DNA of 47,754 nucleotides from a virus (lineage: Duplodnaviria; Heunggongvirae; Uroviricota; Caudoviricetes), in IMG/VR virus record IMGVR_UViG_2778261224_000004. The stretch is one strand, 5' to 3'. Positions 1 to 47,754 of the stretch are shown in pieces (the stretch's first letter is position 1; each line of letters starts with the position of its first letter). Made by a program: the position numbers and the translations under genes. The notes below the pieces were generated by a model that had not been told where the DNA came from, did no database searches, and saw only the letters and a program-made list of their open reading frames with translations.

Positions 1-77
1 GATATTGTTATAGGGCATAATGTGACCATTGGTTGTAATGCCACCATTCTTGGTGGCAAAGTGCGTATAGGAAACAA
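1..77. repeat. Terminal duplication: bases 1-77 identical to 47678-47754 (circular-closure overlap)
   Basis: Same 77-nt string at both window ends, in the same reading frame of the acetyltransferase gene. Confidence 0.9.
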
Positions 78-6120: not shown

Positions 6121-6737
6121 GCCTGAGCCTCCGTTGTCGGAGCGTATTCCCCCTGAGCTGTGTGATGGTGGCCTTTAGATTTAATCCCATCAACATCTAT
6201 ATCACCACCAACAACCTTAACATTCCCAGAAATTGTAGCTGCAACACCTCCAGCAGAAGATCCTTTCATTCCACCTTTGAAGGTTAGTAATCCTTCAACT
6301 GTAGCATTTCCGGTAATGATGGTTTCTGGAGCATCAATAGTTACGGTTCCTGTAGCCTTAATGGTTACATCTCCGACAGCATCAACAAGGAGTAAATTAG
6401 ATTCTCTGTCTATCTCAATACGAGTTCCGTTATTAAATCTAATGACGCGTTTATTAACAGTATTAGATGGCGGCTTCTGTGTTTCATCATAAAAACTACC
6501 AAGAATAAAACCTTGTTGCGGCCCCGCGGGATGAAAGATACACAAAACTTGCTCACCAATATCTGGCATCCAGTAATCAGCATTCTTATCTGTATTTTTC
6601 ACAATAACTGATAACTTTGCCGAAGTGACGTTATCCTGATCATCGAAAGTAACTCTTGCTGTAACATCACCATCATCAATATCAGAAACAACGCCAACTC
6701 TTATAGTCTGACGTAATAATGTTTCTAAATCATTCAT
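6117..6737 (-). CDS. Baseplate central spike protein (P2 gpV / Mu gp45-like)
   Basis: 206-aa ORF; C-terminal Gly/Val-rich beta-helix-like repeats (TIDAPETIITGNATVEG...GGVAATISGNVKVVGGDIDVDG) and His cluster (KGHHHT) typical of spike tips. Confidence 0.65.
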   Translation of the reverse strand: MNDLETLLRQTIRVGVVSDIDDGDVTARVTFDDQDNVTSAKLSVIVKNTDKNADYWMPDIGEQVLCIFHPAGPQQGFILGSFYDETQKPPSNTVNKRVIRFNNGTRIEIDRESNLLLVDAVGDVTIKATGTVTIDAPETIITGNATVEGLLTFKGGMKGSSAGGVAATISGNVKVVGGDIDVDGIKSKGHHHTAQGEYAPTTEAQA

Positions 6738-20888: not shown

Positions 20889-21449
20889 TTATTCTTCCTG
20901 CTTAATAAATCGGGATTCCTGGAGCGCCTGAAGCGCAAAATTAATCTCGTCTTCAATAATGCGCTCGATCTCCCTGGCTGTTTTGCCTTCACAACGGGGA
21001 GCTGCTCTTGGAGCAATACTAAATAAGCGGCTACGCAATTCATTAGCTGCCAGAAATGCATCATCCCTGACCGCATCTTTAGCGATGAGAGAGCCTTCCT
21101 TTTCTTCAAATTCAAGGCGTTTCAGCTTTGCCTGATAAATTTTTTCTGCGGTCTTAGCCTTGTTGAATTGCACCGCAACACCGGAAGTACCACCAGCTAA
21201 TCCGGCATCATCAGCGGGTAACTCTGGTTGTTCCGAAGATATCCCATGCCCTCTTTTTCCATTTTCAGCAGATACCTCACGACCAACCTGTCGGCTCGCT
21301 TCATAAGCCGCACTGGCTTTATCAAAATCCAGCTTGCCGCTTTTCAGCACTGGAATGCGACCGGAACGACAGAGCTTCGTAACCATTGCCGGAGAAATAC
21401 CTTTCCGGCGGGCAAACTCTGACTTACTGACGATGGCCATTACTTGCAA
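20889..21449 (-). CDS. Terminase small subunit (Nu1-like, N-terminal HTH)
   Basis: 186-aa ORF directly upstream of large terminase; N-terminal HTH-like SKSEFARRKGISPAMVTKL. Confidence 0.6.
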   Translation of the reverse strand: MQVMAIVSKSEFARRKGISPAMVTKLCRSGRIPVLKSGKLDFDKASAAYEASRQVGREVSAENGKRGHGISSEQPELPADDAGLAGGTSGVAVQFNKAKTAEKIYQAKLKRLEFEEKEGSLIAKDAVRDDAFLAANELRSRLFSIAPRAAPRCEGKTAREIERIIEDEINFALQALQESRFIKQEE

Positions 21450-22030
21450 CCATTAGCAAGATACTGAACAAATCCCTCATGCGTTTCATGCGCGTCGTGG
21501 TACTGACGATAAACATCCAGCAACAATGCAATTTCCATATCCGTCGCGGGAATACGTTCTTTATCAATAGCCAGGTACTTAATTTGAACAACAGGGGAAG
21601 AATTATCGTCTTCTTCCTGCGGCTGTTCATCGCTTAACATTTCGTCAAGCTCTGCATCATTAAACCCAAGCAGATCAATATCAAAATCATCATCCATTAA
21701 CTCTTTGACTTCTTCGGCCAGAAGCTGCATATCCCAGCCAGCATTTAAGGCCAGCTTGTTATCTGCAATCCTGTAAGCCTTCTTCTGTTTTTCAGAAAGG
21801 TTACTCAACCGAATCGCCGGAACTTTATCCATTTCCAGAATTTCGGCTGCTGCAAGCCGCCCATGCCCCGCAATCAGTTCATTCTTTTCATCGATCAGCA
21901 CAGGATTAGTGAAACCGAACTCACGGATACTGTTCACCAACTGTTCAACTTGCTCATCTGAATGAGTCCGTGAATTTTTGGCATATCTGAGCAACTTACC
22001 GACTGGTAAATATTCGATTTTTAGAGCCAT
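21440..22030 (-). CDS. ParB-like nuclease domain (ParB/Srx fold) protein
   Basis: 196-aa ORF; motif ..YAKNSRTHSDEQVEQLVNSIREFGFTNPVLIDE..LIAGHGRLAAA..; paralog of 24697..25320. Confidence 0.7.
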   Translation of the reverse strand: MALKIEYLPVGKLLRYAKNSRTHSDEQVEQLVNSIREFGFTNPVLIDEKNELIAGHGRLAAAEILEMDKVPAIRLSNLSEKQKKAYRIADNKLALNAGWDMQLLAEEVKELMDDDFDIDLLGFNDAELDEMLSDEQPQEEDDNSSPVVQIKYLAIDKERIPATDMEIALLLDVYRQYHDAHETHEGFVQYLANGCK

Positions 22031-22587: not shown

Positions 22588-23307
22588 TTAACGAGAGAAG
22601 GTCTTAGAAAGAATGTCATCAATCGCCTTTGTGACTTCATCAGCAAACGCATCCTCACCAGCACGCAGCGCCACGCCATGCCAATCAAGACGCTGCGAAT
22701 AGTTAGGTTGCTGGATAAACGTAAGGATCAACGTAGGACGCCGCCCAACGCGCTGCCAGACGCCTGGTTGAAGCGGGTTACTTGTACCAGGTCGAACAAC
22801 AAAAAACTCCGTAGGCTTGCCCTGACGGCGATTTTGATGCGCATCTCGCTGAACTCTTAGGCCAGATAAGACCTGCTGTAATTGCCCCCGCGAAATATTC
22901 CCGTATTTGTCCAGCTTTGCGCCGGGACCAGGAGCAAGCTGCCAGCCGTTAGGCAAATATCCACCAGCCCTTAGCGCCCCTTCTGAGCGTTTGTACTGTC
23001 GTTGGCCACCTTCGATTTGCGGAGTCAACGTTACAGGGGCTGGCGTTCCTCCCCATTCACGAGCATACACAATGGCTGTAGGATCACTCTTCTTTGCGGC
23101 CAAAACGTAAGTAGAGTTCTGAATCCACGGCGTGGGCCTGTCAAATACCCGATTAATTTCATTCTTAATCGCAGCCTGAGAAGCCTTTGCCGTTCTGGTT
23201 GCCGCAAGCGCCATTGCGAACGGCAATTCGCGTTCTTCAAGGCGCTGGAGTTGTCGTTGAATATCCTGAGAAGAAAAATCCATCTTTATCTCAATTCTGT
23301 CAGCCAC
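22588..23307 (-). CDS. Hypothetical protein
   Basis: 239-aa ORF between ParB-methyltransferase fusion and the AT-rich gap. Confidence 0.45.
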   Translation of the reverse strand: MADRIEIKMDFSSQDIQRQLQRLEERELPFAMALAATRTAKASQAAIKNEINRVFDRPTPWIQNSTYVLAAKKSDPTAIVYAREWGGTPAPVTLTPQIEGGQRQYKRSEGALRAGGYLPNGWQLAPGPGAKLDKYGNISRGQLQQVLSGLRVQRDAHQNRRQGKPTEFFVVRPGTSNPLQPGVWQRVGRRPTLILTFIQQPNYSQRLDWHGVALRAGEDAFADEVTKAIDDILSKTFSR

Positions 23308-23323
23308 CAGCGCCTCCTACACA

Positions 23324-24703
23324 CTACTTAATCAACGGCCGGAAAGCCGCCAGCACATCATCAGATCGTCCGATTGTTGAACCACCAGGCAACGGCAACT
23401 CAAACTCAAAACGAACAGCTTTCTCCAGACTCGCCCAACTAAGGGAATCATCGTTAATAACGTGCAAATACCAGCTCTTACAGTTGAATATTGACCGCTT
23501 AATCCTGAAACCATGTACACGACACAACTGCTTCACTTCATCATCAGAGTGAAACTTCTGGTAAAACCAGTGCCCCTTCCGGTACAACGCGGTAAAACCG
23601 TTATGATCAATAAAATAAAGCCGGCTTTTGGAACTCGCAGCTTGTGTTTGCTTCAGGACTGTTTCCAGCTCTCCACGGCTACGGCCAGAAAAGAATATTG
23701 ACCCACCAGCTTTACACAAGCCTTTCAGAACCGTCAGAACGGACCATTCAGCCTCGACACTATCGACCGAGTTCAAAACGCTATCGCAAATCACGTAGTC
23801 GTAACGCCCTCGCGTTTTTAAGTCGTCCACCAGCGTATCAATCATCCGGTTTGTTGCGGTCCTATCCAGAGTGTTTCCAGCGCCCTTACGGCGGAAAAGC
23901 TCGAGATCATGCAGGTTATATCCCTTTGCCCTGAGCATTCGCGCGTAGTCTCCCTGCCCCGAACCAAAATCAATTCCTCTTGGCGTCTTGGCAACGATCG
24001 GGAGGATCAACGACTCATACAGATTTGATTTCAGGCTGCCACCATTACGCAACCGCATAAGCTGCGCATACGTCTGGATGTATGTTGTTTTCTCCAGATG
24101 AGAATACTCAAATACACCATAAGTTTTATTCAGATAACTTTGGTATTTTTCCTTCTCAACATCAGGGATCACAAACACCGTTAGCGGTGTGCGCGTCATT
24201 TTCGCTGCTAATGCATACTGAGCACAGTGAATAACCTCACCAGACTGAGTAGCAACACAACCACCCCACGGACCATACTTGATAACCAGTTCCGCTATGT
24301 TCTTTCGAACATATGCCATTTTCGCGCGCATATTGCCTGAGATCTGGCTTGCCGATACCTGAACAAAACCATGCTTATCTTCCAGACCGGACACCCTGCA
24401 ACGCTCATCTCCGCTATCAAAATCCGTTCCGTTATGCAGTTGGTTAAACCGTACTTCGTCGTATACCGTCGTTTCACAGGGCAACACATACACCGCAGCA
24501 CGCGTTATTCCCAACTTACGTAGCGCCTTCGTCCTTTGGTGTCCCGCCACCAGCAAATCGCCGCGCACTATCAATGGCTTCACAAGCCCCAGCTCCCTGA
24601 CGCTTTCCGCCAGCCTCGCAAGATCATCCTCACCGATAAAACGCGGGTTATATTCCGCGCCGCGTAGGTGCGTTATGTCGTAATTGAGGTGAAGCATCAG
24701 CAC
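23324..24703 (-). CDS. ParB-like N-terminal domain fused to a class I SAM-dependent methyltransferase domain
   Basis: 459-aa ORF; N-terminal ParB-like ..LVAGHQRTKAL..; C-terminal Rossmann methyltransferase motif I GIDFGSGQGDYA and motif II-like YDYVICDSVL; no DPPY/DPPW or PCQ motif seen. Confidence 0.65.
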   Translation of the reverse strand: MLMLHLNYDITHLRGAEYNPRFIGEDDLARLAESVRELGLVKPLIVRGDLLVAGHQRTKALRKLGITRAAVYVLPCETTVYDEVRFNQLHNGTDFDSGDERCRVSGLEDKHGFVQVSASQISGNMRAKMAYVRKNIAELVIKYGPWGGCVATQSGEVIHCAQYALAAKMTRTPLTVFVIPDVEKEKYQSYLNKTYGVFEYSHLEKTTYIQTYAQLMRLRNGGSLKSNLYESLILPIVAKTPRGIDFGSGQGDYARMLRAKGYNLHDLELFRRKGAGNTLDRTATNRMIDTLVDDLKTRGRYDYVICDSVLNSVDSVEAEWSVLTVLKGLCKAGGSIFFSGRSRGELETVLKQTQAASSKSRLYFIDHNGFTALYRKGHWFYQKFHSDDEVKQLCRVHGFRIKRSIFNCKSWYLHVINDDSLSWASLEKAVRFEFELPLPGGSTIGRSDDVLAAFRPLIK

Positions 24704-25320
24704 ACCTCCCCAGCCAGCAATGCGGATACAAATCCGATATAGCTGCCATTATCATCAACATAACGAGACACCGCGCAGTCAAAACGATCCGCTTCCTCAT
24801 CCGTTGCCGGGATTTTATGACCTCCAAATGACAGGTACTGAACTTTTACGCCTGATTTGGCCTCATCCTTCTCAAATGGGATATCCATACCCTCTGTGTC
24901 ATCGTAGACCGCCGCACTCAATAAGTTATCCAGTTCGCGCTGAGTAAAACCAATTGAGTCCAGAGAAAAATCATCGGCCGCAAGATCTGCAAGCTCCGCG
25001 CTTAACAACTCTTCATCCCAACCAGCATTCAGCGGAATACGGTTGTCGGCCAGACGATATGCCTTCTTCTGATTCTCCGTTAGCCCAGCCAGAACAATGC
25101 AGGGAACATCATCCATCCCCAACTGAGTGGCCGCAGCAATTCGACCATGACCAGCAATTACAACGTTGTTCTCGTCTATCAGGATCGGATTAGTCCATCC
25201 GTACTCCTGTATGCTGGCAACAATCTGATCTACCTGCTCCACGGAGTGTGTGCGAGCGTTCTTTTCATAACCAATCAACACAGAAAGTGGTAAAGAAACC
25301 ACATTAAGTTGTTTTGTCAT
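24697..25320 (-). CDS. ParB-like nuclease domain (ParB/Srx fold) protein
   Basis: 207-aa ORF; ..YEKNARTHSVEQVDQIVASIQEYGWTNPILIDE..VIAGHGRIAAA.. Confidence 0.7.
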   Translation of the reverse strand: MTKQLNVVSLPLSVLIGYEKNARTHSVEQVDQIVASIQEYGWTNPILIDENNVVIAGHGRIAAATQLGMDDVPCIVLAGLTENQKKAYRLADNRIPLNAGWDEELLSAELADLAADDFSLDSIGFTQRELDNLLSAAVYDDTEGMDIPFEKDEAKSGVKVQYLSFGGHKIPATDEEADRFDCAVSRYVDDNGSYIGFVSALLAGEVC

Positions 25321-25975: not shown

Positions 25976-26006
25976 GAAAATAAAAAGCCCCGCGACACCG
26001 CGAGGC
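25976..26006 (-). terminator. Rho-independent terminator (minus strand)
   Basis: 8-bp GC-rich stem (one mismatch) with 4-nt loop followed by TTTTTATTTT on the minus strand. Confidence 0.55.
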
Positions 26007-26014
26007 TGTAAGAG

Positions 26015-26828: not shown

Positions 26829-26902
26829 CCCATGTTCTCCTTTGTCTGGATGTAAAAAAGCCCCGGCAATTGCCGAGGCTCGTTGTTCGTTATCGTTACG
26901 GT

Positions 26903-27103: not shown

Positions 27104-27369
27104 TCATCATCTCCTGCCGCACATACAACCTCACAAAAAAAATCAGCAGAATGTTTCTCCTTGAACGAATGACGCTCAAAACCGCACTCAATATCAGGCG
27201 CAAAAACATCCACCACATACGGTCTTTCAGAATGTTTGTTTTCCCAACGATAAACCGTAGTGACGTTGAAATGTTTTAACGCTTCACGGAACTCAACGCT
27301 GCCCGTCAGGTTTTTTGAGGTCAGGTATTGCAGGAGGTTTTTTACTACTTCACGGTCTTGTACTTTCAT
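27100..27369 (-). CDS. Hypothetical protein, first gene after repeat copy A
   Basis: 89-aa ORF; GGAG RBS 8 nt upstream of ATG inside the conserved 112-bp cassette. Confidence 0.45.
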   Translation of the reverse strand: MKVQDREVVKNLLQYLTSKNLTGSVEFREALKHFNVTTVYRWENKHSERPYVVDVFAPDIECGFERHSFKEKHSADFFCEVVCAAGDDE

Positions 27370-27478
27370 CGGGTTATCTCCGGTTTAACCAGGGCGGGTA
27401 TCGCTCGGTTTCGGGTATAACCATAGGAAATTTTTTCCCATCTGTAAAGCACTTTTTATATAAATCTATAATTATATA
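27367..27478 (-). promoter_or_regulatory. Conserved ~112-bp promoter/leader cassette, copy A
   Basis: More than 95 percent identical to 34245..34355 and 43156..43267; contains AT-rich motif, TTTACA-N17-TATGGT promoter-like hexamers, leader and RBS. Confidence 0.55.
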
Positions 27479-27481
27479 ATT

Positions 27482-28069
27482 CTATGACACTTGCCAGAGA
27501 GCATCATGCAACTGGATACCTCCGTTGCACTGGTTGCCCCAGCCATGCCAGCCATCAGGTAAATCACCGCGAGCAAACAGCTCAATACGAGGAACATCGC
27601 CTAACAGCTTTACCAGCTTGTCACGGACCACATCAGGCTTCCGAGAATGCTCCAGACGAGGCGATGTAAACGACTGAATGATCCCCGCATCAAGACGTGT
27701 CGGTAGTTTGCCTTTCACTGCAAACAAGCAATCTTCACTGTTTGCACGAGTCATATGCCCCATCCCCATCACCAGCTTATCTGGTTGTCGGCTACCACAT
27801 TTGTTCCATGTGAAGCCCTTCATGGTCATCAGCCTGAATCCCCATGCTTTCACCACCAGCAACGCTTCTTCTGGCTGAGTCGGAACCCACCACATGGCCA
27901 ACAAACACGATTCAGGATTAGCAAGCTGCCAGACAGGAATACGAGCAATATCCTCAGCTTTCATCGTTGGATACTTAAAACCAGCGCCACGATTCCCATC
28001 CTTACACTTGTCTTTGTATTCCCAGGGGGGATCTGCATAAATCAGATTAAACAATGCAATTGCCTCCAT
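27482..28069 (-). CDS. MT-A70-family N6-adenine DNA methyltransferase
   Basis: 195-aa ORF with catalytic motif YADPPWEY near the N-terminus. Confidence 0.7.
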   Translation of the reverse strand: MEAIALFNLIYADPPWEYKDKCKDGNRGAGFKYPTMKAEDIARIPVWQLANPESCLLAMWWVPTQPEEALLVVKAWGFRLMTMKGFTWNKCGSRQPDKLVMGMGHMTRANSEDCLFAVKGKLPTRLDAGIIQSFTSPRLEHSRKPDVVRDKLVKLLGDVPRIELFARGDLPDGWHGWGNQCNGGIQLHDALWQVS

Positions 28070-28376: not shown

Positions 28377-28452
28377 TGGTGGCCCCTACCGGATTTGAAC
28401 CGATGACCGTGCGATTATGAGTCGCCTGCTCTAACCACTGAGCTAAGGGGCC
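28377..28452 (-). tRNA. tRNA with CAT anticodon (Met or lysidine-type Ile2), encoded CCA end
   Basis: Hand-folded cloverleaf GGCCCCTTAGCTCAGTGGTTAGAGCAGGCGACTCATAATCGCACGGTCATCGGTTCAAATCCGGTAGGGGCCACCA: 7-bp acceptor stem, D arm, anticodon loop CTCATAA, T loop TTCAAAT. Confidence 0.85.
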
Positions 28453-28545: not shown

Positions 28546-28621
28546 TGGTTGATGCGTGCGCCCATGAGAAAAGCGCATAGAATGTTGTAACTATATATTT
28601 ATATAATTATAGAAATATATA

Positions 28622-28831
28622 TTACTTTGGACAGTTGATTTCCCATGCCATGTTATGAGCCAGAATATCTTTCTTTGTCTGGCGGTCCATAACATCGATG
28701 TCGTGATCAGTCAGGTAGATGGGCTTTACCCAATCACAGGCGGTATCAACCACCACCGGGACGCTTCCACGACTCCCGCAGCTCGCGATCAACATCGTCA
28801 TCAGCCATATGGTTAACACTCTGCTGTACAT
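28622..28831 (-). CDS. Rz1-like outer-membrane lipoprotein (o-spanin candidate)
   Basis: 69-aa ORF with signal peptide and lipobox LIASC, in the +1 frame overlapping the 3' end of the Rz-like gene. Confidence 0.5.
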   Translation of the reverse strand: MYSRVLTIWLMTMLIASCGSRGSVPVVVDTACDWVKPIYLTDHDIDVMDRQTKKDILAHNMAWEINCPK

Positions 28832-29024
28832 TCCCCACCTCTTTTGTCACTTCTATACGCCGCTCCGCAGTGGCTTTTACGGCGGCTGCATTCTCATTAA
28901 TGCGCTGCTTTTCAGCTTCATCTTCGGCCTTTTCTCGCCCTTTCATACGACCAAAACCAAACGCGCCGAATGCAACCAATATAATTGTGCCAATAAATGA
29001 CAACACGGCCTTCAAACCAGTCAT
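28746..29024 (-). CDS. Rz-like inner-membrane spanin (i-spanin candidate)
   Basis: 92-aa ORF with N-terminal TM segment and charged periplasmic part, ATGA overlap with endolysin stop. Confidence 0.5.
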   Translation of the reverse strand: MTGLKAVLSFIGTIILVAFGAFGFGRMKGREKAEDEAEKQRINENAAAVKATAERRIEVTKEVGNVQQSVNHMADDDVDRELRESWKRPGGG

Positions 29025-29563
29025 ACCACCACTCGCTCTTTCATCCAGCCGTAGACAAACGACTCATTAGCCTCGCGCTTCTCCGCCAACTCCAGATAGC
29101 GTTCGCCCTGCGTACAGTTCAGCGACGTCAGCATCACCCGTTCGCCGTCTTTTCCCCGATTCCCAAGATAAGCACGTAGCGCATTAATGGTACGTGGACC
29201 GATTCGTCCGTCTGCATCCAAATCGGGATACAGCTTCCCGCGCAGGTTGAACACATTCAGCCAGCGTTGAAGCATTTTTGACGCCACTATTGGCCCCATG
29301 TTCACCCCCGTGTCACACAGCTCTGCGGCAATATCAGAGGATAATGCGGCCACCTGATCAAAGCGTGGTCCGTACCAGTAATCAGCCTCAAGGATTTCCA
29401 GTGCCTGTTCGCGGGTTAAATCGCGCATATCGCCACGGTATCCATGAGCACGGGCAGAGTTCTGAGTAATGCCCCACTTTGTTGGGCCTCCCTTGTCGTC
29501 AGGGTGATCCACATAGCCGCCCTCTTTTCCAAGAACGCTGTTAAAAATCTCATCTTTGGTCAT
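29021..29563 (-). CDS. Endolysin, GH108 family with peptidoglycan-binding domain
   Basis: 180-aa ORF; N-terminal ..GKEGGYVDHPDDKGGPTKWGIT.. typical of GH108 lysozymes. Confidence 0.75.
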   Translation of the reverse strand: MTKDEIFNSVLGKEGGYVDHPDDKGGPTKWGITQNSARAHGYRGDMRDLTREQALEILEADYWYGPRFDQVAALSSDIAAELCDTGVNMGPIVASKMLQRWLNVFNLRGKLYPDLDADGRIGPRTINALRAYLGNRGKDGERVMLTSLNCTQGERYLELAEKREANESFVYGWMKERVVV

Positions 29564-29882
29564 GATTAAACCCTAATGCGTCAACTATCCGCGCCAGATT
29601 GCCCCTGAAATACAGAACAACGATGCAGATAATCAGATTTCCAATAACCACCAGCCAGTGGGATTCTTGATAAAGACCGAACACATAACGGAAGGGAACA
29701 TTGGCGTATACAATGACGTAGATATAAGCCAGAAAGGAAACAAATGGACGATGCCTGGAGTCTTTCCGTCGATAAAGCATCAGCGCCATTACTATTACTG
29801 TGCAAAGCACCGCATTAATCAGTGCTGACGGGTCACTGCTTACCATTTGAACCCCCTCCACGTAATCGGGAAAGCATTCCAA
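29550..29882 (-). CDS. Holin/antiholin-like membrane protein (start uncertain)
   Basis: 110-aa ORF with hydrophobic helices; internal Met at MVSSDPSAL is an alternative start. Confidence 0.45.
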   Translation of the reverse strand: MECFPDYVEGVQMVSSDPSALINAVLCTVIVMALMLYRRKDSRHRPFVSFLAYIYVIVYANVPFRYVFGLYQESHWLVVIGNLIICIVVLYFRGNLARIVDALGFNHDQR

Positions 29883-30228
29883 AGATGCTACCGAGATCCT
29901 GGCTGTTTACGAACGTGAGGATTTTAATGGTCAATGCAGCCACAATAACCGCACCAAGCGCATCCAGAGGACGATCGTTGTAGCTGGTCCATTTGGCAAG
30001 AAATGAGCCAACTAACGGCGCTCCAATCACTCCAACAATGAACGATGTAAAGAAATAGCCAATCAGCTTGAGACGGCTAATATTCACCGCTGTAGCAACA
30101 TAGAAAACAGCGCCAGCAAATGCCCCGAATACAACGCCGTAATCAATACCAGTTGCAATACCAAAAACGCTGGCACCCATCAGGCCACCAGCAGCAACGG
30201 CCGTACCGGAAATTGGTTCTGCTGACAT
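29833..30228 (-). CDS. Holin-like membrane protein
   Basis: 131-aa ORF, Gly/Ala-rich TM segments, first gene of lysis block. Confidence 0.5.
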   Translation of the reverse strand: MSAEPISGTAVAAGGLMGASVFGIATGIDYGVVFGAFAGAVFYVATAVNISRLKLIGYFFTSFIVGVIGAPLVGSFLAKWTSYNDRPLDALGAVIVAALTIKILTFVNSQDLGSIFGMLSRLRGGGSNGKQ

Positions 30229-30241
30229 TGAAATCCTCGTT

Positions 30242-30272
30242 AAAAAAAAAGCCCCGCCGAAAAAGGCAGGGC
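30242..30272 (-). terminator. Rho-independent terminator (minus strand) just upstream of the lysis cassette
   Basis: Minus strand GCCCTGCC-TTTTTC-GGCGGGGC stem-loop (8 bp incl. one G-U) followed by nine T. Confidence 0.7.
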
Positions 30273-30418
30273 TTCATAAAGCAACAAATTACGCGGTAAT
30301 CGCTTAACGCAGTTTTACTACGTTAAATGAAACACTACACCCAGTTACCACCTAAAACAAGGTTTCCCCATAAAAAAACCTTCATATCGTGGTTAATCGA
30401 TCAATAAAAAAGCAATGT

Positions 30419-30610
30419 TCAACTTTTTACCAACTGAACATCCCGACCAGGACTTCCATAATATTCGCCGATATTCCACTGCTTAAGTTGAGTAATCTTC
30501 TCCAACTTAACTCCCACAGAATCCAATTTCTGCCATGTTTTCGGTTGTATGTGCCTCATTACCCGCTCTGAATATCTAAATACTGCTCGTAGCCTCGCTA
30601 AATTGCTCAC
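30419..30610 (-). CDS. Hypothetical protein
   Basis: 63-aa ORF, ATGA overlap with upstream gene. Confidence 0.35.
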   Translation of the reverse strand: MSNLARLRAVFRYSERVMRHIQPKTWQKLDSVGVKLEKITQLKQWNIGEYYGSPGRDVQLVKS

Positions 30611-32824: not shown

Positions 32825-33123
32825 GCCACAGCCCCTCTCAACGGCTTAACTTTGGCTAATAAGGTGTTAAACAACATGGAGTTAGGATTCATGCCAAATG
32901 GCAATTCCGGTTTAGCGGAGTAGTACAGGCAACCATTTATTTTCCTGGTTGTTATCTGTCCTTCGGCAACCATGCTTCTCAGTCTGCAACGCATAGAGTT
33001 CTGCGACACACCAATGTGCTCCGCGATTACGTCCACTTTTGAACATGGGTGATCGGTCAGGAAATTAATCACATCTTGGGGGTTAATAATTTTGCGTTTC
33101 ATTGTCGAGGCGTCCTTATACAT
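32821..33123 (-). CDS. Hypothetical protein, possible winged-helix DNA-binding regulator
   Basis: 100-aa ORF; own AT-rich motif copy immediately upstream (33125-33150). Confidence 0.4.
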   Translation of the reverse strand: MYKDASTMKRKIINPQDVINFLTDHPCSKVDVIAEHIGVSQNSMRCRLRSMVAEGQITTRKINGCLYYSAKPELPFGMNPNSMLFNTLLAKVKPLRGAVA

Positions 33124-33179
33124 TTATATAAATATATAATTCTATATATGGCGGGAGACGTCCCGCCGTAGGCTTACTG

Positions 33180-34247
33180 TCAGGCTTTCAATAGCGATTC
33201 TTTTAGATATCGGGCATCAGCCAGGGCGTTTGGAGTAATCTTGCGAACCCATGCATTACGGGTTGGACTCCACTTAAAGGCGCGTGATTTAAGCAGCGAA
33301 CGAATGTTTGCCTCTGGTTTGCCAGGGAAATAAAACAGGATGCGGTTATCCTCTGGATCTATCTCCATAGAAAAGCCGTCGTATTCTTCGCGCTGTGCTC
33401 CTGTTACAGACTTGACCGATTCAAGCTCCTTAATACGGCTCTGTAGTCGTTTGATTTCGGCGTTATTGTTGCTCAGTGCGTATGAAGGGAATCCGATGCG
33501 CCCACAGAAATCTCCGGCCAGTAACTCTTTGGCTTCGCTTTCTGTAAACCTGAGATCGATTAATGCAGAAAGCTGCTGTATTTGGTCTTTTTTGTATTTG
33601 CGAATGGCCTTATTTGCGGCCTTCATTTTGACGTGTGACTTCATGCAGCCTTGCAGCTTACGAAGCAACTTAAATAGCGCATCAGGATCATCAGACGAAA
33701 TTCCATTACGACCAACACCTGCGGCTTTGCTCTCGTAGTGTGATGCTTTACTTTCGCATTCAACAAACGCTTTTCTGAATAACGCATCAGCTTTAGACAA
33801 ACGGCGGCGATGGCCTTTCGCGCTATAATGGTCAACTAAAATCGGCTGGCCTAACGGGATCACATCCAACAGGTCATGCGCTCGCTTATGCGCTACCGCA
33901 CCTTCTTTTCTGGCTTTTTCTGCACGAGCAATATATCGGGCAAGACGCGCGTTCTGGCGTTCCTGATAGGTGTTTACGTAATCATCTCCGCGCTGCTGCT
34001 GTTCAAGCCATGCTTTGCGCAGATCTTCTGTTACGTCCACCAGCTCCGCAGGGATACAACCAGTTTGGGCTTCATAAGAGTAACCATCCTCATAGATACG
34101 CCCATCGTCTTCAACAAAGAAAAAGGTTTCGTGCTCATCGCTTTTGACCATACGACCATTAACATGGCGTAATAGGTAGCCAGTATCAGTGCTTAACAGG
34201 CTGTTAGGGTTGTTGATCCAGTCAGAAATAATTACTTGTTTATTCAT
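33180..34247 (-). CDS. Hypothetical protein (DUF3560-like by recollection), first gene after repeat copy B
   Basis: ORF track gives 33180..34301; start moved to Met 34247, which aligns with the start codons of the other two cassette copies and has a GGAG RBS. Confidence 0.45.
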   Translation of the reverse strand: MNKQVIISDWINNPNSLLSTDTGYLLRHVNGRMVKSDEHETFFFVEDDGRIYEDGYSYEAQTGCIPAELVDVTEDLRKAWLEQQQRGDDYVNTYQERQNARLARYIARAEKARKEGAVAHKRAHDLLDVIPLGQPILVDHYSAKGHRRRLSKADALFRKAFVECESKASHYESKAAGVGRNGISSDDPDALFKLLRKLQGCMKSHVKMKAANKAIRKYKKDQIQQLSALIDLRFTESEAKELLAGDFCGRIGFPSYALSNNNAEIKRLQSRIKELESVKSVTGAQREEYDGFSMEIDPEDNRILFYFPGKPEANIRSLLKSRAFKWSPTRNAWVRKITPNALADARYLKESLLKA

Positions 34248-34355
34248 CAGATTTCTCCGGTTTAACCAGGGCGGGTATCGCTCGGTTTCGGGCATAACCA
34301 TAGGAAATTTTTTCCCACCTGTAAAGCACTTTTTATATAAATCTATAATTATATA
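34245..34355 (-). promoter_or_regulatory. Conserved ~112-bp promoter/leader cassette, copy B (immediately downstream of Q-like gene)
   Basis: Near-identical to copies A and C. Confidence 0.55.
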
Positions 34356-34416
34356 TTTATAGATTTTCGATGTTCCCGATGTCTACACACCATCAAAACA
34401 GCTCAAAATGACACTT

Positions 34417-36786: not shown

Positions 36787-36904
36787 ACCACGATACGTGG
36801 TATTAAAACCACATATCGTGAGTTTTTCAATGGGCGAAACAAAAAATAACCTTCTATTTGTGGTCCACCTCTCGTCTTACCATGTGAAAACCACTAAATG
36901 TGGT
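36787..36904. promoter_or_regulatory. Immunity-region operators: palindromes ACCAC-N5-GTGGT between divergent repressor and Cro-like genes
   Basis: Sites at 36787-36801 (ACCACGATACGTGGT), 36808-36822 (imperfect) and 36890-36904 (ACCACTAAATGTGGT). Confidence 0.6.
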
Positions 36905-36941: not shown

Positions 36942-37598
36942 ATGAAAAGCAACGACGAGAACATCAAGAAAGAAATAGGTCTGCGCATTCAGACTCTACG
37001 GAAACAATCCGGCATGACTGCCGGAGATCTCCAGCAAGTCACTGGAATAGGCTTAAGCACCTTGCAGAACTATGAGGCCGGATTAAGACAACCATCTATA
37101 CCTGCCATCAAGAAAATCGCGCACGCCCTGAAAGCATCAGCGCCTTATATCGCGTGCTTAACAGATAACCCGTTCCCACCCCAGAATACTAACGCTCCTG
37201 TTATTCCTGGGCTTGTAGCTATAAAAAATGACATAGCATCGCACGCCGGAGAAAAGCCAGTGCTGGCGATAGAACAGGAGATTCTACGAAGCAAGAACAT
37301 CAACCCATCGTCTCTGTCAGTTCTCCAGAGCAACGATGAGTTAATGTCACCAACAATATCCCCAGGCTCCCAAGTCCTGATTAATACAGACGATACAGAG
37401 ATTCATGAGGGGATCTATGCCCTTGAAGACAGAAATGGCCTGGTTGTTTTGAGGCACTGTAGAGTCATACCGGGTGACAATGCTGTTATGCTGTCAACCG
37501 AAAGGGATGCTGAAATGAACACTAAGCATCTGAATAACGAGGAATTTAAGCGTTATAAAGTTCTTGGCCGCGTAGTTAGTGTTGTCAACTGGTTATGA
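36942..37598 (+). CDS. CI-like repressor (HTH_XRE N-terminus, LexA/S24-like C-terminal domain)
   Basis: 218-aa ORF; ..QTLRKQSGMTAGDLQQVTGIGLSTLQNYEAG.. HTH and S24-like C-terminal domain. Confidence 0.8.
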   Translation: MKSNDENIKKEIGLRIQTLRKQSGMTAGDLQQVTGIGLSTLQNYEAGLRQPSIPAIKKIAHALKASAPYIACLTDNPFPPQNTNAPVIPGLVAIKNDIASHAGEKPVLAIEQEILRSKNINPSSLSVLQSNDELMSPTISPGSQVLINTDDTEIHEGIYALEDRNGLVVLRHCRVIPGDNAVMLSTERDAEMNTKHLNNEEFKRYKVLGRVVSVVNWL

Positions 37599-38069: not shown

Positions 38070-38089
38070 AAGCGGGCTAACGCCCGCTT
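38070..38089 (+). terminator. Hairpin (candidate terminator) after the 124-aa ORF
   Basis: AAGCGGGC-TAAC-GCCCGCTT perfect 8-bp stem; downstream tract AT-rich rather than a clean T run. Confidence 0.45.
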
Positions 38090-38200
38090 ATATGATTATA
38101 GATTTATATAATTATATAAAACGCTTTTCATCAGCCAAAAAGTTGGTTATGCTTACCTCGTTCTATAAATATAGATTTATAGAATTATATAACCAAACAC
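38085..38200 (+). promoter_or_regulatory. Two copies of the AT-rich ATTATAGATTTATAtAA motif upstream of parA (promoter/centromere candidate)
   Basis: Motif at about 38090-38115 and 38165-38190; a third copy lies upstream of parG at 38861-38900. Confidence 0.45.
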
Positions 38201-47296: not shown

Positions 47297-47754
47297 ATGC
47301 TGAATAATAAAGATATGAATATTAATGAACTTAAAGACTGTATTCACTATGAAGTAATCGGTAGCGAGCGTCCTTTCTCCTGGCGAAAGGCAATTGTTCG
47401 CGCAATAAAACATAGAAGGGTTCGTTATTTATTTTGGTGGCGCATAGCCAAATACCTTTTTGATAAAGGCGGATACTGTCGGAAGATTGCGGGAAAAATA
47501 GAACGTTTCATTCTTGATAAATATAATGTAACAGTCCCTTTAACTGTAAATATAGGGAAAGGCTTTGATATTTCTTATCTCAACAGTGTTGTTATCGGTC
47601 ACAAAGTAACAATCGGTGAAAATTGTTCAATTAAGCCCGGAGTAACTATTGGACTTCGCGGGGAATTTAATGATATGGATATTGTTATAGGGCATAATGT
47701 GACCATTGGTTGTAATGCCACCATTCTTGGTGGCAAAGTGCGTATAGGAAACAA
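47297..47754 (+). CDS. Hexapeptide-repeat O-acetyltransferase, N-terminal part (continues at 78..183 across the circular junction; about 187 aa in total)
   Basis: ATG at 47297; translation MLNNKDMNINELKDC...GKGFDISYLNSVVIGHKVTIGENCSIKPGVTIGL... with hexapeptide repeats; reads in frame into the terminal duplication. Confidence 0.75.
   Translation, partial: MLNNKDMNINELKDCIHYEVIGSERPFSWRKAIVRAIKHRRVRYLFWWRIAKYLFDKGGYCRKIAGKIERFILDKYNVTVPLTVNIGKGFDISYLNSVVIGHKVTIGENCSIKPGVTIGLRGEFNDMDIVIGHNVTIGCNATILGGKVRIGN

What the first reader, a model, noticed from the sequence alone, without database searches (positions are those of the whole stretch)
28622..30272. Lysis cassette preceded by a strong terminator and containing an embedded lipoprotein gene
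Two membrane proteins (holin/antiholin candidates), a GH108 endolysin, and an Rz-like gene with an Rz1-like lipoprotein (lipobox LIASC) in the +1 frame form the lysis block. A strong minus-strand terminator (30242-30272) sits directly upstream of the first holin-like gene, implying lysis gene expression needs read-through. The Rz-like protein is unusually short (92 aa) and the Rz1-like ORF extends past its end.
Basis: partly seen in the sequence, partly recalled or inferred. Interest (0 to 1): 0.4.

Follow-up and report, generated by a model that had tools for sequence, protein, structure and literature searches.

The report
Terminator-gated lysis cassette of a phage-plasmid
This is an ordinary five-gene phage lysis block on an E. 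coli phage-plasmid, locked behind a strong terminator that belongs to a conserved control module (a tiny orphan protein gene plus a structured leader) in a phage with no known antiterminator.

Summary
On the minus strand of a 47.7-kb circular E. coli phage-plasmid lie two holin-family genes (PF16931, PF05449), a cytoplasmic GH108 muramidase about 80% identical to PDB 6V3Z, a 92-aa i-spanin and an overlapped 69-aa o-spanin lipoprotein. All five are tightly coupled.

An 11-bp, -20.5 kcal/mol hairpin followed by nine U ends 13 nt before the first holin ATG. The lysis genes therefore have no room for a promoter of their own.

The cassette type is already known from lambdoid phage mEp390. The 92-aa i-spanin and the "extends past the end" layout are normal for that catalogued overlapped spanin family. 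A terminator in front of this holin family is the rule (50 of 59 relatives), and sampled relatives carry Q antiterminators.

The new part lies just outside the given coordinates. This phage-plasmid has no recognisable Q. Instead, an orphan 59-67-aa protein gene, a roughly 115-nt highly conserved leader and the terminator form a module. In six divergent lineages that module precedes lysis cassettes of unrelated types.

My best reading is regulated read-through (antitermination) of a long late unit that holds at least three more terminators. The mechanism is inferred, not shown. A sub-threshold GcvB resemblance is not homology.

The parts
30419..30610 (-). o63: small orphan protein gene (63 aa here; 59-67 aa in relatives), the last gene before the leader. 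Candidate regulator of read-through.
   Evidence: Matches phrog_9594, function unknown. Only 19 clusters among 5.8 billion proteins, none with a Pfam domain, from E. coli and Citrobacter contigs of about 47 kb. Invariant motif R.R..FRYSE...QW..G.YYG, with synonymous-type codon changes between lineages. Always sits directly upstream of leader plus lysis cassette. The AlphaFold2 model has low confidence (pLDDT 57) and shows three helices.
30304..30415 (-). Conserved leader core. Elements: AACCAC 30394-30389; hypervariable tetranucleotide 30388-30385; hairpin SL1 30382-30359; CTTGTTTT/GGTGGTAAC 30361-30343; TAGTGTTT 30337-30330; hairpin SL2 30326-30304.
   Evidence: About 90% identical in relatives whose flanking o63 protein is only 48-57% identical to the window's. 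Single copy in the replicon. RNAalifold and my own structure give the same helices, and one-sided changes are G.U-compatible. Fold z-score is -4.5.
30242..30275 (-). Intrinsic terminator t1: 11-bp stem, 6-nt loop, nine U.
   Evidence: -20.5 kcal/mol; 99.5% of cells paired, CG to UA compensatory pair. It ends 13 nt before the holin ATG.
29833..30228 (-). Holin-family protein 1 (131 aa). Four hydrophobic segments and a charged C-terminal tail.
   Evidence: PF16931 at 1.7e-37 and phrog_198 'holin'. Hydropathy.
29550..29846 (-). Holin-family protein 2 (98 aa from the ATG). Three transmembrane segments. Overlaps holin-1 by 14 nt.
   Evidence: PF05449 at 1.3e-17 and phrog_217. Hydropathy. PGAP calls a 297-nt gene.
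29021..29563 (-). Endolysin: GH108 muramidase plus PG_binding_3 domain. No signal or SAR segment. Carries the EGGY motif.
   Evidence: Matches PDB 6V3Z (Sen1395) at 1.1e-102, about 80% identity. No hydrophobic stretch.
28746..29024 (-). i-spanin (92 aa). N-terminal transmembrane segment, helical charged periplasmic part, no Cys.
   Evidence: phrog_1026. Hydropathy. mEp390 gp51 homologue is 91 aa.
28622..28831 (-). o-spanin lipoprotein (69 aa; mature part 52 aa). +1 frame, overlapped architecture, two periplasmic Cys.
   Evidence: phrog_1275. 65 distinct homologues down to 52% identity; all that are complete keep the lipobox Cys and both periplasmic Cys. Not annotated by PGAP or GenBank.
28377..28452 (-). 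tRNA with anticodon CAU, in the same transcription direction directly after the cassette.
   Evidence: PGAP names it tRNA-Ile.
26858..26881 (-). Second strong terminator (t2) further down the same strand.
   Evidence: -18.8 kcal/mol.
25986..26007 (-). Third strong terminator (t3), upstream of the packaging and structural genes.
   Evidence: -16.6 kcal/mol. Similar in sequence to t2 (family D13).
34297..34325 (-). Nearest consensus-like upstream promoter (TTTACA-17-TATGGT). It is part of a 114-nt cassette repeated three times. It probably drives the operon that ends at t1.

Best explanation
The region is the functional lysis module of a temperate myovirus that is maintained as a plasmid.

The likely sequence of events is as follows. 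Two holin-family membrane proteins permeabilise the inner membrane. A cytoplasmic GH108 muramidase then reaches and cuts the peptidoglycan. A two-component spanin (a 92-aa inner-membrane subunit plus a 52-aa mature outer-membrane lipoprotein) finally disrupts the outer membrane.

The five genes are translationally coupled. They are the first genes of a roughly 30-kb same-strand late unit (lysis, tRNA, methyltransferase, packaging, head, tail).

They have no promoter of their own. Transcription arrives from upstream through a conserved structured leader and is stopped by a strong intrinsic terminator 13 nt before the first ATG. This keeps lysis silent in the plasmid state.

Lysis, and probably the whole late unit with its further terminators, is switched on by regulated read-through, that is, processive antitermination analogous to lambda tR'.

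The antiterminator is not a known Q protein. The best candidates are the conserved 63-aa orphan protein encoded immediately upstream and/or the conserved leader RNA.

Shown: gene identities, the terminator, the absence of a promoter, and conservation of the module.

Inferred: antitermination itself, and the roles of the small protein and the leader.
For: The same cassette order (holin of 131 aa, holin of 93 aa, endolysin, 91-aa i-spanin, overlapped o-spanin) occurs in lambdoid phage mEp390, with two tandem terminators upstream.

The terminator is strong and conserved with compensatory change. It lies 13 nt from the ATG with no promoter-like site between.

A terminator lies within 200 nt upstream of this holin family in 50 of 59 distinct relatives, against 6.5% of control windows. 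Sampled relatives encode Q antiterminators of families PF06530, PF03589 and DUF1133.

Three further strong same-strand terminators lie inside the late unit, at 26881-26858, 26007-25986 and 7847-7827.

The o63-leader-terminator order is kept in six divergent lineages, upstream of unrelated lysis cassettes: PF16931/PF05449/GH108 in some, and a 93-97-aa holin plus PF00959 SAR-type lysozyme plus embedded spanins in others.

The leader core is far more conserved than the adjacent coding DNA and is single copy.

Lambda-type control by a terminated short transcript is established knowledge (PMC7547250).
Against: No expression data exist, so read-through, its regulation and any role of o63 are untested.

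No consensus sigma-70 promoter was found for the leader, so the origin of the transcript is uncertain.

One natural variant (L010/L102) keeps leader, terminator and lysis genes but has no o63 within the 2.2 kb available upstream.

The o63 model has low confidence and resembles nothing known.

Within the closest relatives, the leader downstream of about 30350 is no more conserved than the adjacent holin gene. Among those relatives its conservation could therefore reflect a recent sweep.

Covariation support for the leader helices is thin: the RNAalifold covariation term is -0.38 kcal/mol.
Confidence: 0.6

Rival explanations
1. The terminator is only the passive 3' end, or insulator, of the upstream operon that starts at the promoter cassette at 34325-34297. 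Lysis and late genes are made from the small fraction of polymerases that leak through once upstream transcription rises after induction. No dedicated antiterminator exists. On this reading o63 and the leader serve some other purpose.
For: No Q-like gene was found (PGAP names). A promoter cassette with an upstream repeat array lies at the head of the operon that ends at t1. The variant L010 lacks an adjacent o63.
Against: The hairpin has 11 bp, -20.5 kcal/mol and nine U, so it should terminate efficiently. Three more strong terminators would multiply the loss before the structural genes are reached. Relatives with the same holin use Q. The leader core is conserved beyond what a passive 3' end requires.
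Confidence: 0.2
2. The conserved core is mainly a DNA element: a weak late promoter (TTGTTT 30360-30355, 17-bp spacer, TAGTGT 30337-30332) with a conserved GG(Y)GGTAA site in its spacer. On this reading o63 is a DNA-binding activator or a miniature Q-like loader. The short transcript would be about 85 nt long, start near SL2 and end at the terminator, like lambda 6S RNA.
For: Both hexamers, their 17-bp spacing and the spacer motif are invariant in all six lineages. The order of gene, promoter, short leader, terminator and lysis genes mirrors lambda Q-PR'-tR'. The o63 model is a small three-helix protein.
Against: The hexamers match only 6 of 12 consensus positions. Substitutions in SL1, which would lie upstream of such a start site, are G.U-compatible on the transcribed strand, as expected for RNA. 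That rests on few events.
Confidence: 0.15
3. The leader plus terminator is a trans-acting small RNA, either an independent gene or derived from the 3' UTR of the o63 operon. It has a GU-rich seed and is GcvB-like or DapZ-like. Its terminator stands in front of the holin only incidentally.
For: There is a sub-threshold Rfam GcvB match over the full model: 34.3 bits against a gathering score of 42, E = 6e-5. Relatives L128 and L152 score 28-29 bits. The GU-rich stretch 30346-30327 is predicted unpaired and is nearly invariant. Short terminated late-promoter transcripts can act as sRNAs, as StxS does (PMC7547250).
Against: The match is below the curated threshold and is absent in three of five relatives. 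Direct alignment with E. coli GcvB shows similarity only around the terminator. Many sRNA models hit this terminator at 20-26 bits. The GU-rich stretch is partly replaced in L150. This reading would not exclude a cis role.
Confidence: 0.1

Closest known systems
Lysis cassette of lambdoid phage mEp390 (and HK639), listed as an overlapped spanin family in Kongari et al. 2018 (PMC6139136)
   Same: Same gene order and sizes: 131-aa holin, 93-98-aa holin, endolysin, 91-92-aa i-spanin, overlapped o-spanin. The spanin DNA is 88% identical over 205 nt. Terminators lie just upstream of the first holin. The combination of no Cys in the i-spanin and two in the o-spanin is the commonest one.
   Different: The endolysin is a GH108 muramidase rather than the epsilon15-like lysozyme of mEp390. 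The host element is a plasmid-borne myovirus, not an integrated lambdoid siphovirus. No Q gene is present.
Lambda-type late control: Q, PR', short terminated transcript (6S RNA / StxS), tR', then S-R-Rz/Rz1
   Same: A strong intrinsic terminator stands immediately before the lysis genes at the head of a long late operon that holds further terminators. A structured leader ends at that terminator. A regulator-sized gene lies directly upstream.
   Different: No member of the Q families is present (PF06530, PF03589; PGAP names none). No consensus constitutive promoter was found. The upstream gene encodes only 63 aa and is an orphan. The conserved element looks at least partly like RNA.
Small-factor or RNA-based antitermination: lambda N with nut (boxB), HK022 put RNA, Xp10 p7 (from established knowledge, not tested here)
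   Same: The candidate protein is small and Arg-rich at its N-terminus. An invariant hairpin with an A-rich loop (SL2) lies on the transcript upstream of the terminator. The site is single copy and the effect would need to be processive.
   Different: There is no sequence similarity to N, Nun or p7. No boxA or boxB consensus is present. The module sits at the early/late junction rather than at the start of the early operons.
Salmonella TtsA / Sen1395 muramidases (PDB 6V40, 6V3Z)
   Same: About 80% identity over the full length, with GH108 and PG_binding_3 domains.
   Different: Here the enzyme sits in a complete holin-spanin cassette and is a phage endolysin rather than a toxin-secretion factor.
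GcvB sRNA (Rfam RF00022)
   Same: The layout is the same: 5' hairpin, unpaired GU-rich stretch, hairpin, terminator. The match covers the full length of the model.
   Different: The score is 34.3 bits against a gathering score of 42. The R1 seed is not conserved. The genomic context is unrelated.

Membership tests
Two-component spanin, overlapped architecture (Rz/Rz1 equivalents) | The i-spanin has an N-terminal transmembrane segment followed by a helical periplasmic domain. | tested here: met
   Hydrophobic residues 1-27, then a charged helical region. phrog_1026 at 5.9e-32.
Two-component spanin, overlapped architecture (Rz/Rz1 equivalents) | The o-spanin has a signal peptidase II lipobox, with Cys at +1 and no Asp at +2 (outer-membrane sorting). 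| tested here: met
   MLIAS-C18-GS in the window. The lipobox Cys is kept in all 65 distinct homologues.
Two-component spanin, overlapped architecture (Rz/Rz1 equivalents) | The o-spanin gene starts inside the i-spanin gene in another frame and ends beyond it. | tested here: met
   Start at 28831 inside 28746-29024, +1 frame, 86 nt shared, ends at 28622. A Shine-Dalgarno GAGGTG lies 5 nt upstream.
Two-component spanin, overlapped architecture (Rz/Rz1 equivalents) | Periplasmic cysteine(s) available for disulfide bonds. | tested here: met
   None in the i-spanin; C32 and C67 in the o-spanin. This is the commonest class in PMC6139136.
Two-component spanin, overlapped architecture (Rz/Rz1 equivalents) | Disrupts the outer membrane at lysis. 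| not testable with these tools
   Needs complementation of lambda Rz(am) Rz1(am).
Holins (PF16931 Phage_holin_8; PF05449 Phage_holin_3_7) | HMM score above the curated threshold. | tested here: met
   128.7 bits against a cut-off of 26.4, and 64.0 against 25.4.
Holins (PF16931 Phage_holin_8; PF05449 Phage_holin_3_7) | Small membrane protein with transmembrane segments and a charged C-terminal tail, encoded next to the endolysin. | tested here: met
   Four and three hydrophobic segments respectively, with basic C-terminal tails. The genes overlap the neighbouring genes by 14 nt.
Holins (PF16931 Phage_holin_8; PF05449 Phage_holin_3_7) | Forms lethal membrane holes; assignment of holin versus antiholin roles. 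| not testable with these tools
   No dual-start motif is evident. Needs genetics.
GH108 muramidase endolysin (TtsA/Sen1395-like) | GH108 catalytic domain with the EGGY motif, plus a PG_binding_3 domain. | tested here: met
   The sequence carries GKEGGYV. Matches 6V3Z at 1.1e-102.
GH108 muramidase endolysin (TtsA/Sen1395-like) | Holin-dependent: lacks any secretion or SAR signal. | tested here: met
   No hydrophobic stretch in the protein.
Lambda-type Q/tR' late antitermination | An intrinsic terminator lies between the incoming transcription and the lysis genes, and further terminators lie within the late unit. | tested here: met
Lambda-type Q/tR' late antitermination | A gene of a Q antiterminator family upstream. 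| tested here: not met
   Pfam and PHROGs scans of the 14 upstream ORFs (12 with Pfam) found none. PGAP names none among 67 features. Relatives with the same holin do have Q.
Lambda-type Q/tR' late antitermination | A constitutive sigma-70 promoter with a Q-binding element and a promoter-proximal pause element. | tested here: inconclusive
   Only the weak but invariant TTGTTT-17-TAGTGT with a conserved spacer motif was found.
GcvB sRNA (RF00022) | Covariance-model score at or above the gathering threshold. | tested here: not met
   34.3 bits against 42. Relatives score 28-29 bits or give no match.
Lambda N / nut antitermination | An arginine-rich-motif protein binding a boxB hairpin, with boxA alongside. 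| not tested
   This is only a resemblance: conserved R.R..FRYSER, and an A-rich loop on SL2. No homology was detected.

The most novel reading that the evidence does not exclude
The orphan 59-67-aa protein (o63), together with the conserved roughly 115-nt leader, is a previously undescribed late-gene antitermination switch. It would be a miniature functional analogue of lambda Q or N, acting at a single site. It would let host RNA polymerase read through the terminator in front of the lysis genes and the further terminators of the late unit, in a family of phage-plasmids of about 47 kb. The terminated leader might additionally serve as a small RNA in the plasmid state.
Probability: 0.25. Interest if true: 0.65.

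Novelty: new variant of a known kind. Interest (0 to 1): 0.35.

Why it matters
The lysis cassette itself adds nothing new beyond one more member of a catalogued type. It does show again that overlapped o-spanin genes are left out of public annotation.

What could matter is the control module. This phage-plasmid lineage occurs in about 1.3% of complete E. coli genomes, including the reference strain ATCC 25922. It gates its lethal lysis genes and its whole late region with terminators, yet it lacks any known antiterminator.

A conserved tiny protein and a leader are the obvious candidates. If confirmed, this would be a new, very small antitermination system. It would also give a handle on how plasmid-borne prophages keep lysis silent.

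The question is directly testable with reporter fusions in available strains.

Tried and rejected
Q antiterminator search. Pfam and PHROGs scans of the ORFs between 30607 and 36767 and of neighbouring regulators found no Q.

PDB sequence searches. The 203-aa, 121-aa and 63-aa proteins gave no hits.

o63 characterisation. A Pfam scan of all o63 family members returned only noise. The AlphaFold2 model of o63 was too poor (pLDDT 57) to justify a fold search.

GcvB homology. Rejected: the match is below threshold, is not reproduced in three of five relatives, and direct alignment shows similarity only at the terminator.

Own promoter between terminator and holin. Rejected: only 13 nt are available.

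Consensus promoter for the leader. None reaches 9 of 12 matches.

Second copy of the leader motif in the replicon. None found.

More distant leader or o63 relatives. GTDB representative genomes gave none, by DNA pattern or by protein profile. IMG/VR and metagenome scans gave only the same narrow family.

Hairpin SL3 (30300-30288). Not conserved, so dropped.

A shared 9-mer (CACGATATG) between the leader and the palindromes at 36788-36821. Judged to be chance.

Identity of the phage-plasmid. It is not the pSLy3 type, which is 85-134 kb and SSU5-like. No paper on this element was found.
Full report
**What the window is.**
The first 77 bases repeat at the end of the window, so the sequence is a 47,677-bp circle.

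It is 100% identical over the tested 2.3 kb to E. coli plasmids of about 47.5 kb, such as pDETEC34 (NZ_CP116126.1). These plasmids carry repA, parA and a RelE/ParE pair, together with terminase, portal, capsid, sheath, tube and baseplate genes.

The same stretch is 98% identical to Yersinia phage vB_YpM_41, a 49-kb isolate in which every gene is annotated 'hypothetical'.

The element is therefore a phage-plasmid with a contractile tail. Its leader sequence occurs in 70 of 5,426 complete E. coli genomes, almost always on plasmids of 46-58 kb, including that of ATCC 25922. It is not one of the typed phage-plasmid groups I could check.

**The observation.**
All five ORFs are present on the minus strand, and each matches the expected family:

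| Gene | Coordinates | Size | Family match |
|---|---|---|---|
| holin-1 | 29833-30228 | 131 aa | PF16931 |
| holin-2 | 29550-29846 | 98 aa | PF05449 |
| endolysin | 29021-29563 | 180 aa | GH108 + PG_binding_3 |
| i-spanin | 28746-29024 | 92 aa | phrog_1026 |
| o-spanin | 28622-28831 | 69 aa | phrog_1275 |

The genes overlap by 14, 14, 4 and 86 nt, so they are translationally coupled.

- Hydropathy gives four hydrophobic segments for holin-1 and three for holin-2, each with a basic C-terminal tail.
- The endolysin has no hydrophobic segment, so it needs a hole-forming holin.
- The i-spanin has one N-terminal transmembrane segment and no Cys.
- The o-spanin has a lipobox (I-A-S-C18), Gly at +2 and two further Cys.
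- The endolysin is about 80% identical to the solved muramidase Sen1395, PDB 6V3Z, of the TtsA family.

**Is the o-spanin real, and is the i-spanin odd?**
Sixty-five distinct o-spanin homologues, down to 52% identity, were found in related loci. All that are complete keep the lipobox Cys and both periplasmic Cys. The +1-frame ORF is therefore under protein-level selection.

Three of these homologues (L017, L018, L057) lie 400-840 nt downstream of their i-spanin gene. This family thus contains both overlapped and separated layouts.

The cassette has the same order and sizes as in lambdoid phage mEp390: holin 131 aa, holin 93 aa, endolysin, i-spanin 91 aa, overlapped o-spanin. Kongari et al. list HK639 and mEp390 together as a spanin family. 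They also report that no Cys in the i-spanin with two in the o-spanin is the commonest combination, and that overlapped o-spanin genes are usually left unannotated (PMC6139136). That is also the case here.

The 92-aa size and the 'runs past the end' layout are therefore normal for this family.

**The terminator.**
The stem spans 30275-30248 with 11 pairs, 7 of them G-C, and a 6-nt loop. It is followed by nine U reaching 30242. Its energy is -20.5 kcal/mol, with z = -4.1.

Only 13 nt separate the last U from the holin ATG, and these hold the Shine-Dalgarno GAGGA. No promoter can fit between them. No promoter-like site was found there.

Transcription of the lysis genes must therefore cross the terminator. 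This follows directly from the sequence.

**Comparative support.**
I examined 59 distinct upstream regions of holin-1 homologues, mostly 80-83% identical lambdoid prophages from IMG/VR. Fifty have a terminator-like hairpin plus T-run within 200 nt. The median distance from the stem end to the ATG is 47 nt. Only 6.5% of random same-strand windows have such a site.

Three sampled relatives encode Q antiterminators upstream, of families PF06530, PF03589 and DUF1133. mEp390 has two tandem terminators at this place.

A terminator in front of this cassette is thus the lambda tR' arrangement. There a late promoter is always active, its transcript is terminated immediately downstream, and Q releases the block (PMC7547250).

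**The late unit.**
From the holin down to coordinate 147, all the long ORFs that match the plasmid's annotated genes lie on the minus strand. Three more strong same-strand terminators lie inside this block:

- 26881-26858 (-18.8 kcal/mol)
- 26007-25986 (-16.6 kcal/mol)
- 7847-7827 (-12.2 kcal/mol)

. This argues for a processive, terminator-resistant polymerase rather than leakage.

**What lies upstream.**
The nearest consensus-like promoter on this strand is TTTACA-17-TATGGT at 34325-34297. It is part of a 114-nt cassette present three times in the replicon, each preceded by an array of 8-bp AT-rich units.

The operon it heads encodes a DUF3560 protein, a MarR-like protein, several proteins of unknown function and an Ead/Ea22-like protein. 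It ends at the terminator.

None of these proteins, nor the first early genes, matches a Q family or any solved structure. PGAP names no antiterminator on the plasmid.

**A conserved module just outside the finding.**
Between the Ead gene and the terminator lies a 63-aa ORF (30419-30610), which I call o63.

It is a real gene, for these reasons:

- It matches phrog_9594.
- It is intact (59-67 aa) in every variant but one.
- Its homologues, 48-57% identical, keep the motif R.R..FRYSE...QW..G.YYG, with synonymous-type codon changes.

The family is tiny. It has 19 clusters among 5.8 billion proteins, no Pfam domain, and comes from E. coli and Citrobacter contigs of about 47 kb. It is absent from 185,579 representative genomes.

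In six divergent lineages o63 is followed by a gap of 170-225 nt and then a lysis cassette. The lineages are the window, L126, L128/L148, L150/L151, L152 and L153/L154. The cassette differs between them:

- PF16931, PF05449 and GH108 in the window and in L153.
- A 93-97-aa holin and a PF00959 lysozyme with an N-terminal hydrophobic (SAR-type) segment in L126, L128 and L150, followed in L126 and L128 by embedded spanins.

.

**The leader.**
About 115 nt of the gap is nearly invariant (30415-30304 in the window). It reads AACCAC, four variable bases, TGAAGG, a hairpin (SL1), CTTGTTTT, GG(Y)GGTAA, TAGTGTTT, then a second hairpin (SL2) with an A-rich loop.

In L126 this core is about 90% identical to the window, while its o63 protein is 57% identical to the window's. 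Its terminator has a different sequence but the same fold.

RNAalifold and my hand-drawn structure agree on P1, SL1, SL2 and the terminator:

- The terminator has 99.5% of cells paired, four pairs with one-sided G.U-compatible changes, and one CG to UA compensatory pair.
- SL1 has wobble-compatible changes and one flipped pair.
- SL2 hardly varies.
- SL3 is not conserved.

.

The support for RNA structure is real but thin, because there are few independent events. The element is single copy in the replicon.

The same invariant blocks can also be read as a weak promoter, TTGTTT-17-TAGTGT, with a conserved spacer motif. I cannot decide between the two readings.

**Mechanism.**
I consider the lysis function (holin, endolysin, spanin) well supported by homology and anatomy. 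The gating of the cassette by the terminator is supported by the sequence itself.

It is an inference that the gate is opened by antitermination. It rests on the lambdoid parallels and on the extra terminators.

It is a hypothesis that o63 and/or the leader do this. It rests only on their conserved position upstream of unrelated lysis cassettes, on the extreme conservation of the leader, and on the absence of any Q.

Against it:

- One variant (L010/L102) keeps the leader but has no o63 in the 2.2 kb available upstream.
- The o63 model has low confidence (pLDDT 57, three helices).
- There are no expression data.

**The GcvB lead.**
Rfam gave a full-length but sub-threshold GcvB match at 30243-30400: 34.3 bits against a gathering score of 42.

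Many other sRNA models hit the same terminator at 20-26 bits. Direct alignment with E. coli GcvB is convincing only at the terminator. Only two of five relatives give a match, at 28-29 bits.

I treat this as a shared layout (hairpin, unpaired GU-rich stretch, hairpin, terminator), not as homology. A trans-acting role for the terminated leader remains possible, by analogy with StxS (PMC7547250).

**Verdict.**
The finding is correct and mostly ordinary. It is a known type of lysis cassette with a known kind of terminator gate.

The non-ordinary element lies just upstream: a conserved module of small protein gene, leader and terminator in a Q-less phage-plasmid lineage. That makes this a new variant of a known kind of control, worth a simple reporter experiment.

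Noticed in passing
window 1-77 and 47678-47754: The two ends are 100% identical. The window is therefore a circular replicon of 47,677 bp given with a 77-nt overlap.
   Followed up: yes
window 27456-27487, 28583-28630, 33108-33147, 34333-34364, 38088-38119, 38161-38200, 38869-38908: Arrays of an 8-bp-period AT-rich unit (TTATATAA / TTATAGAT). They lie upstream and downstream of parA, upstream of three repeated promoters, and directly at the o-spanin stop codon. They look like the binding sites of a partition or global regulator, in the manner of ParG, omega or KorB, spread over the replicon.
   Followed up: partly
window 27366-27479, 34243-34356, 43155-43268 (minus strand): A 114-nt cassette repeated three times at 90-97% identity. 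It holds TTTACA-17-TATGGT, a 50-nt 5' UTR, a Shine-Dalgarno site and an ATG. Three different genes share the same promoter and leader.
   Followed up: partly
window 30385-30388: A hypervariable tetranucleotide between the invariant AACCAC and TGAAGG. It shows 8 alleles among 20 otherwise nearly identical leader variants, and three of the four positions have three alleles. The next 350 nt, including synonymous sites of the holin gene, are almost invariant. The SL1 loop (30375-30366) is also variable. This remains unexplained.
   Followed up: partly
window 28377-28452 (minus strand): A tRNA with anticodon CAU directly after the lysis cassette. ARAGORN calls it tRNA-Met, while PGAP calls it tRNA-Ile (the lysidine type).
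   Followed up: no
window 36788-36821: Two adjacent near-palindromes (CCACGATAYGTGG-like) form a 14-bp inverted repeat followed by TTTT. They sit just upstream of the first leftward early gene and opposite the CI-like repressor gene (36942-37598). They are probably operators.
   Followed up: no
window 26858-26881 and 25986-26007: The two downstream terminators resemble each other in sequence: AAAAAGCCCCG...CGAGGCT, 73% identity.
   Followed up: no
L017 5505-5768 / 6409-6618; also L018, L057: In these lambdoid relatives the homologous o-spanin lies 400-840 nt downstream of the i-spanin and has a different signal peptide. This one o-spanin family therefore has both overlapped and separated architectures.
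   Followed up: partly
L010 / L102 (IMGVR_UViG_3300029841_000009, 68.5 kb): This variant has an identical leader, terminator and lysis cassette. A different 105-aa gene abuts the leader, and no o63 lies within the 2.2 kb upstream before the contig ends.
   Followed up: partly
window 28622-28831; records OR545054.1 and NZ_CP116126.1: The o-spanin gene is not annotated in either public record, and the i-spanin is labelled 'hypothetical'. In the Yersinia phage record every gene is 'hypothetical protein'.
   Followed up: yes
window 22588-25320: ParB/Srx-domain proteins lie between the lysis region and the terminase genes, and a fourth lies at 21440-22030. An MT-A70 methyltransferase (27482-28069) lies upstream of them. 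Their function here is unknown.
   Followed up: no
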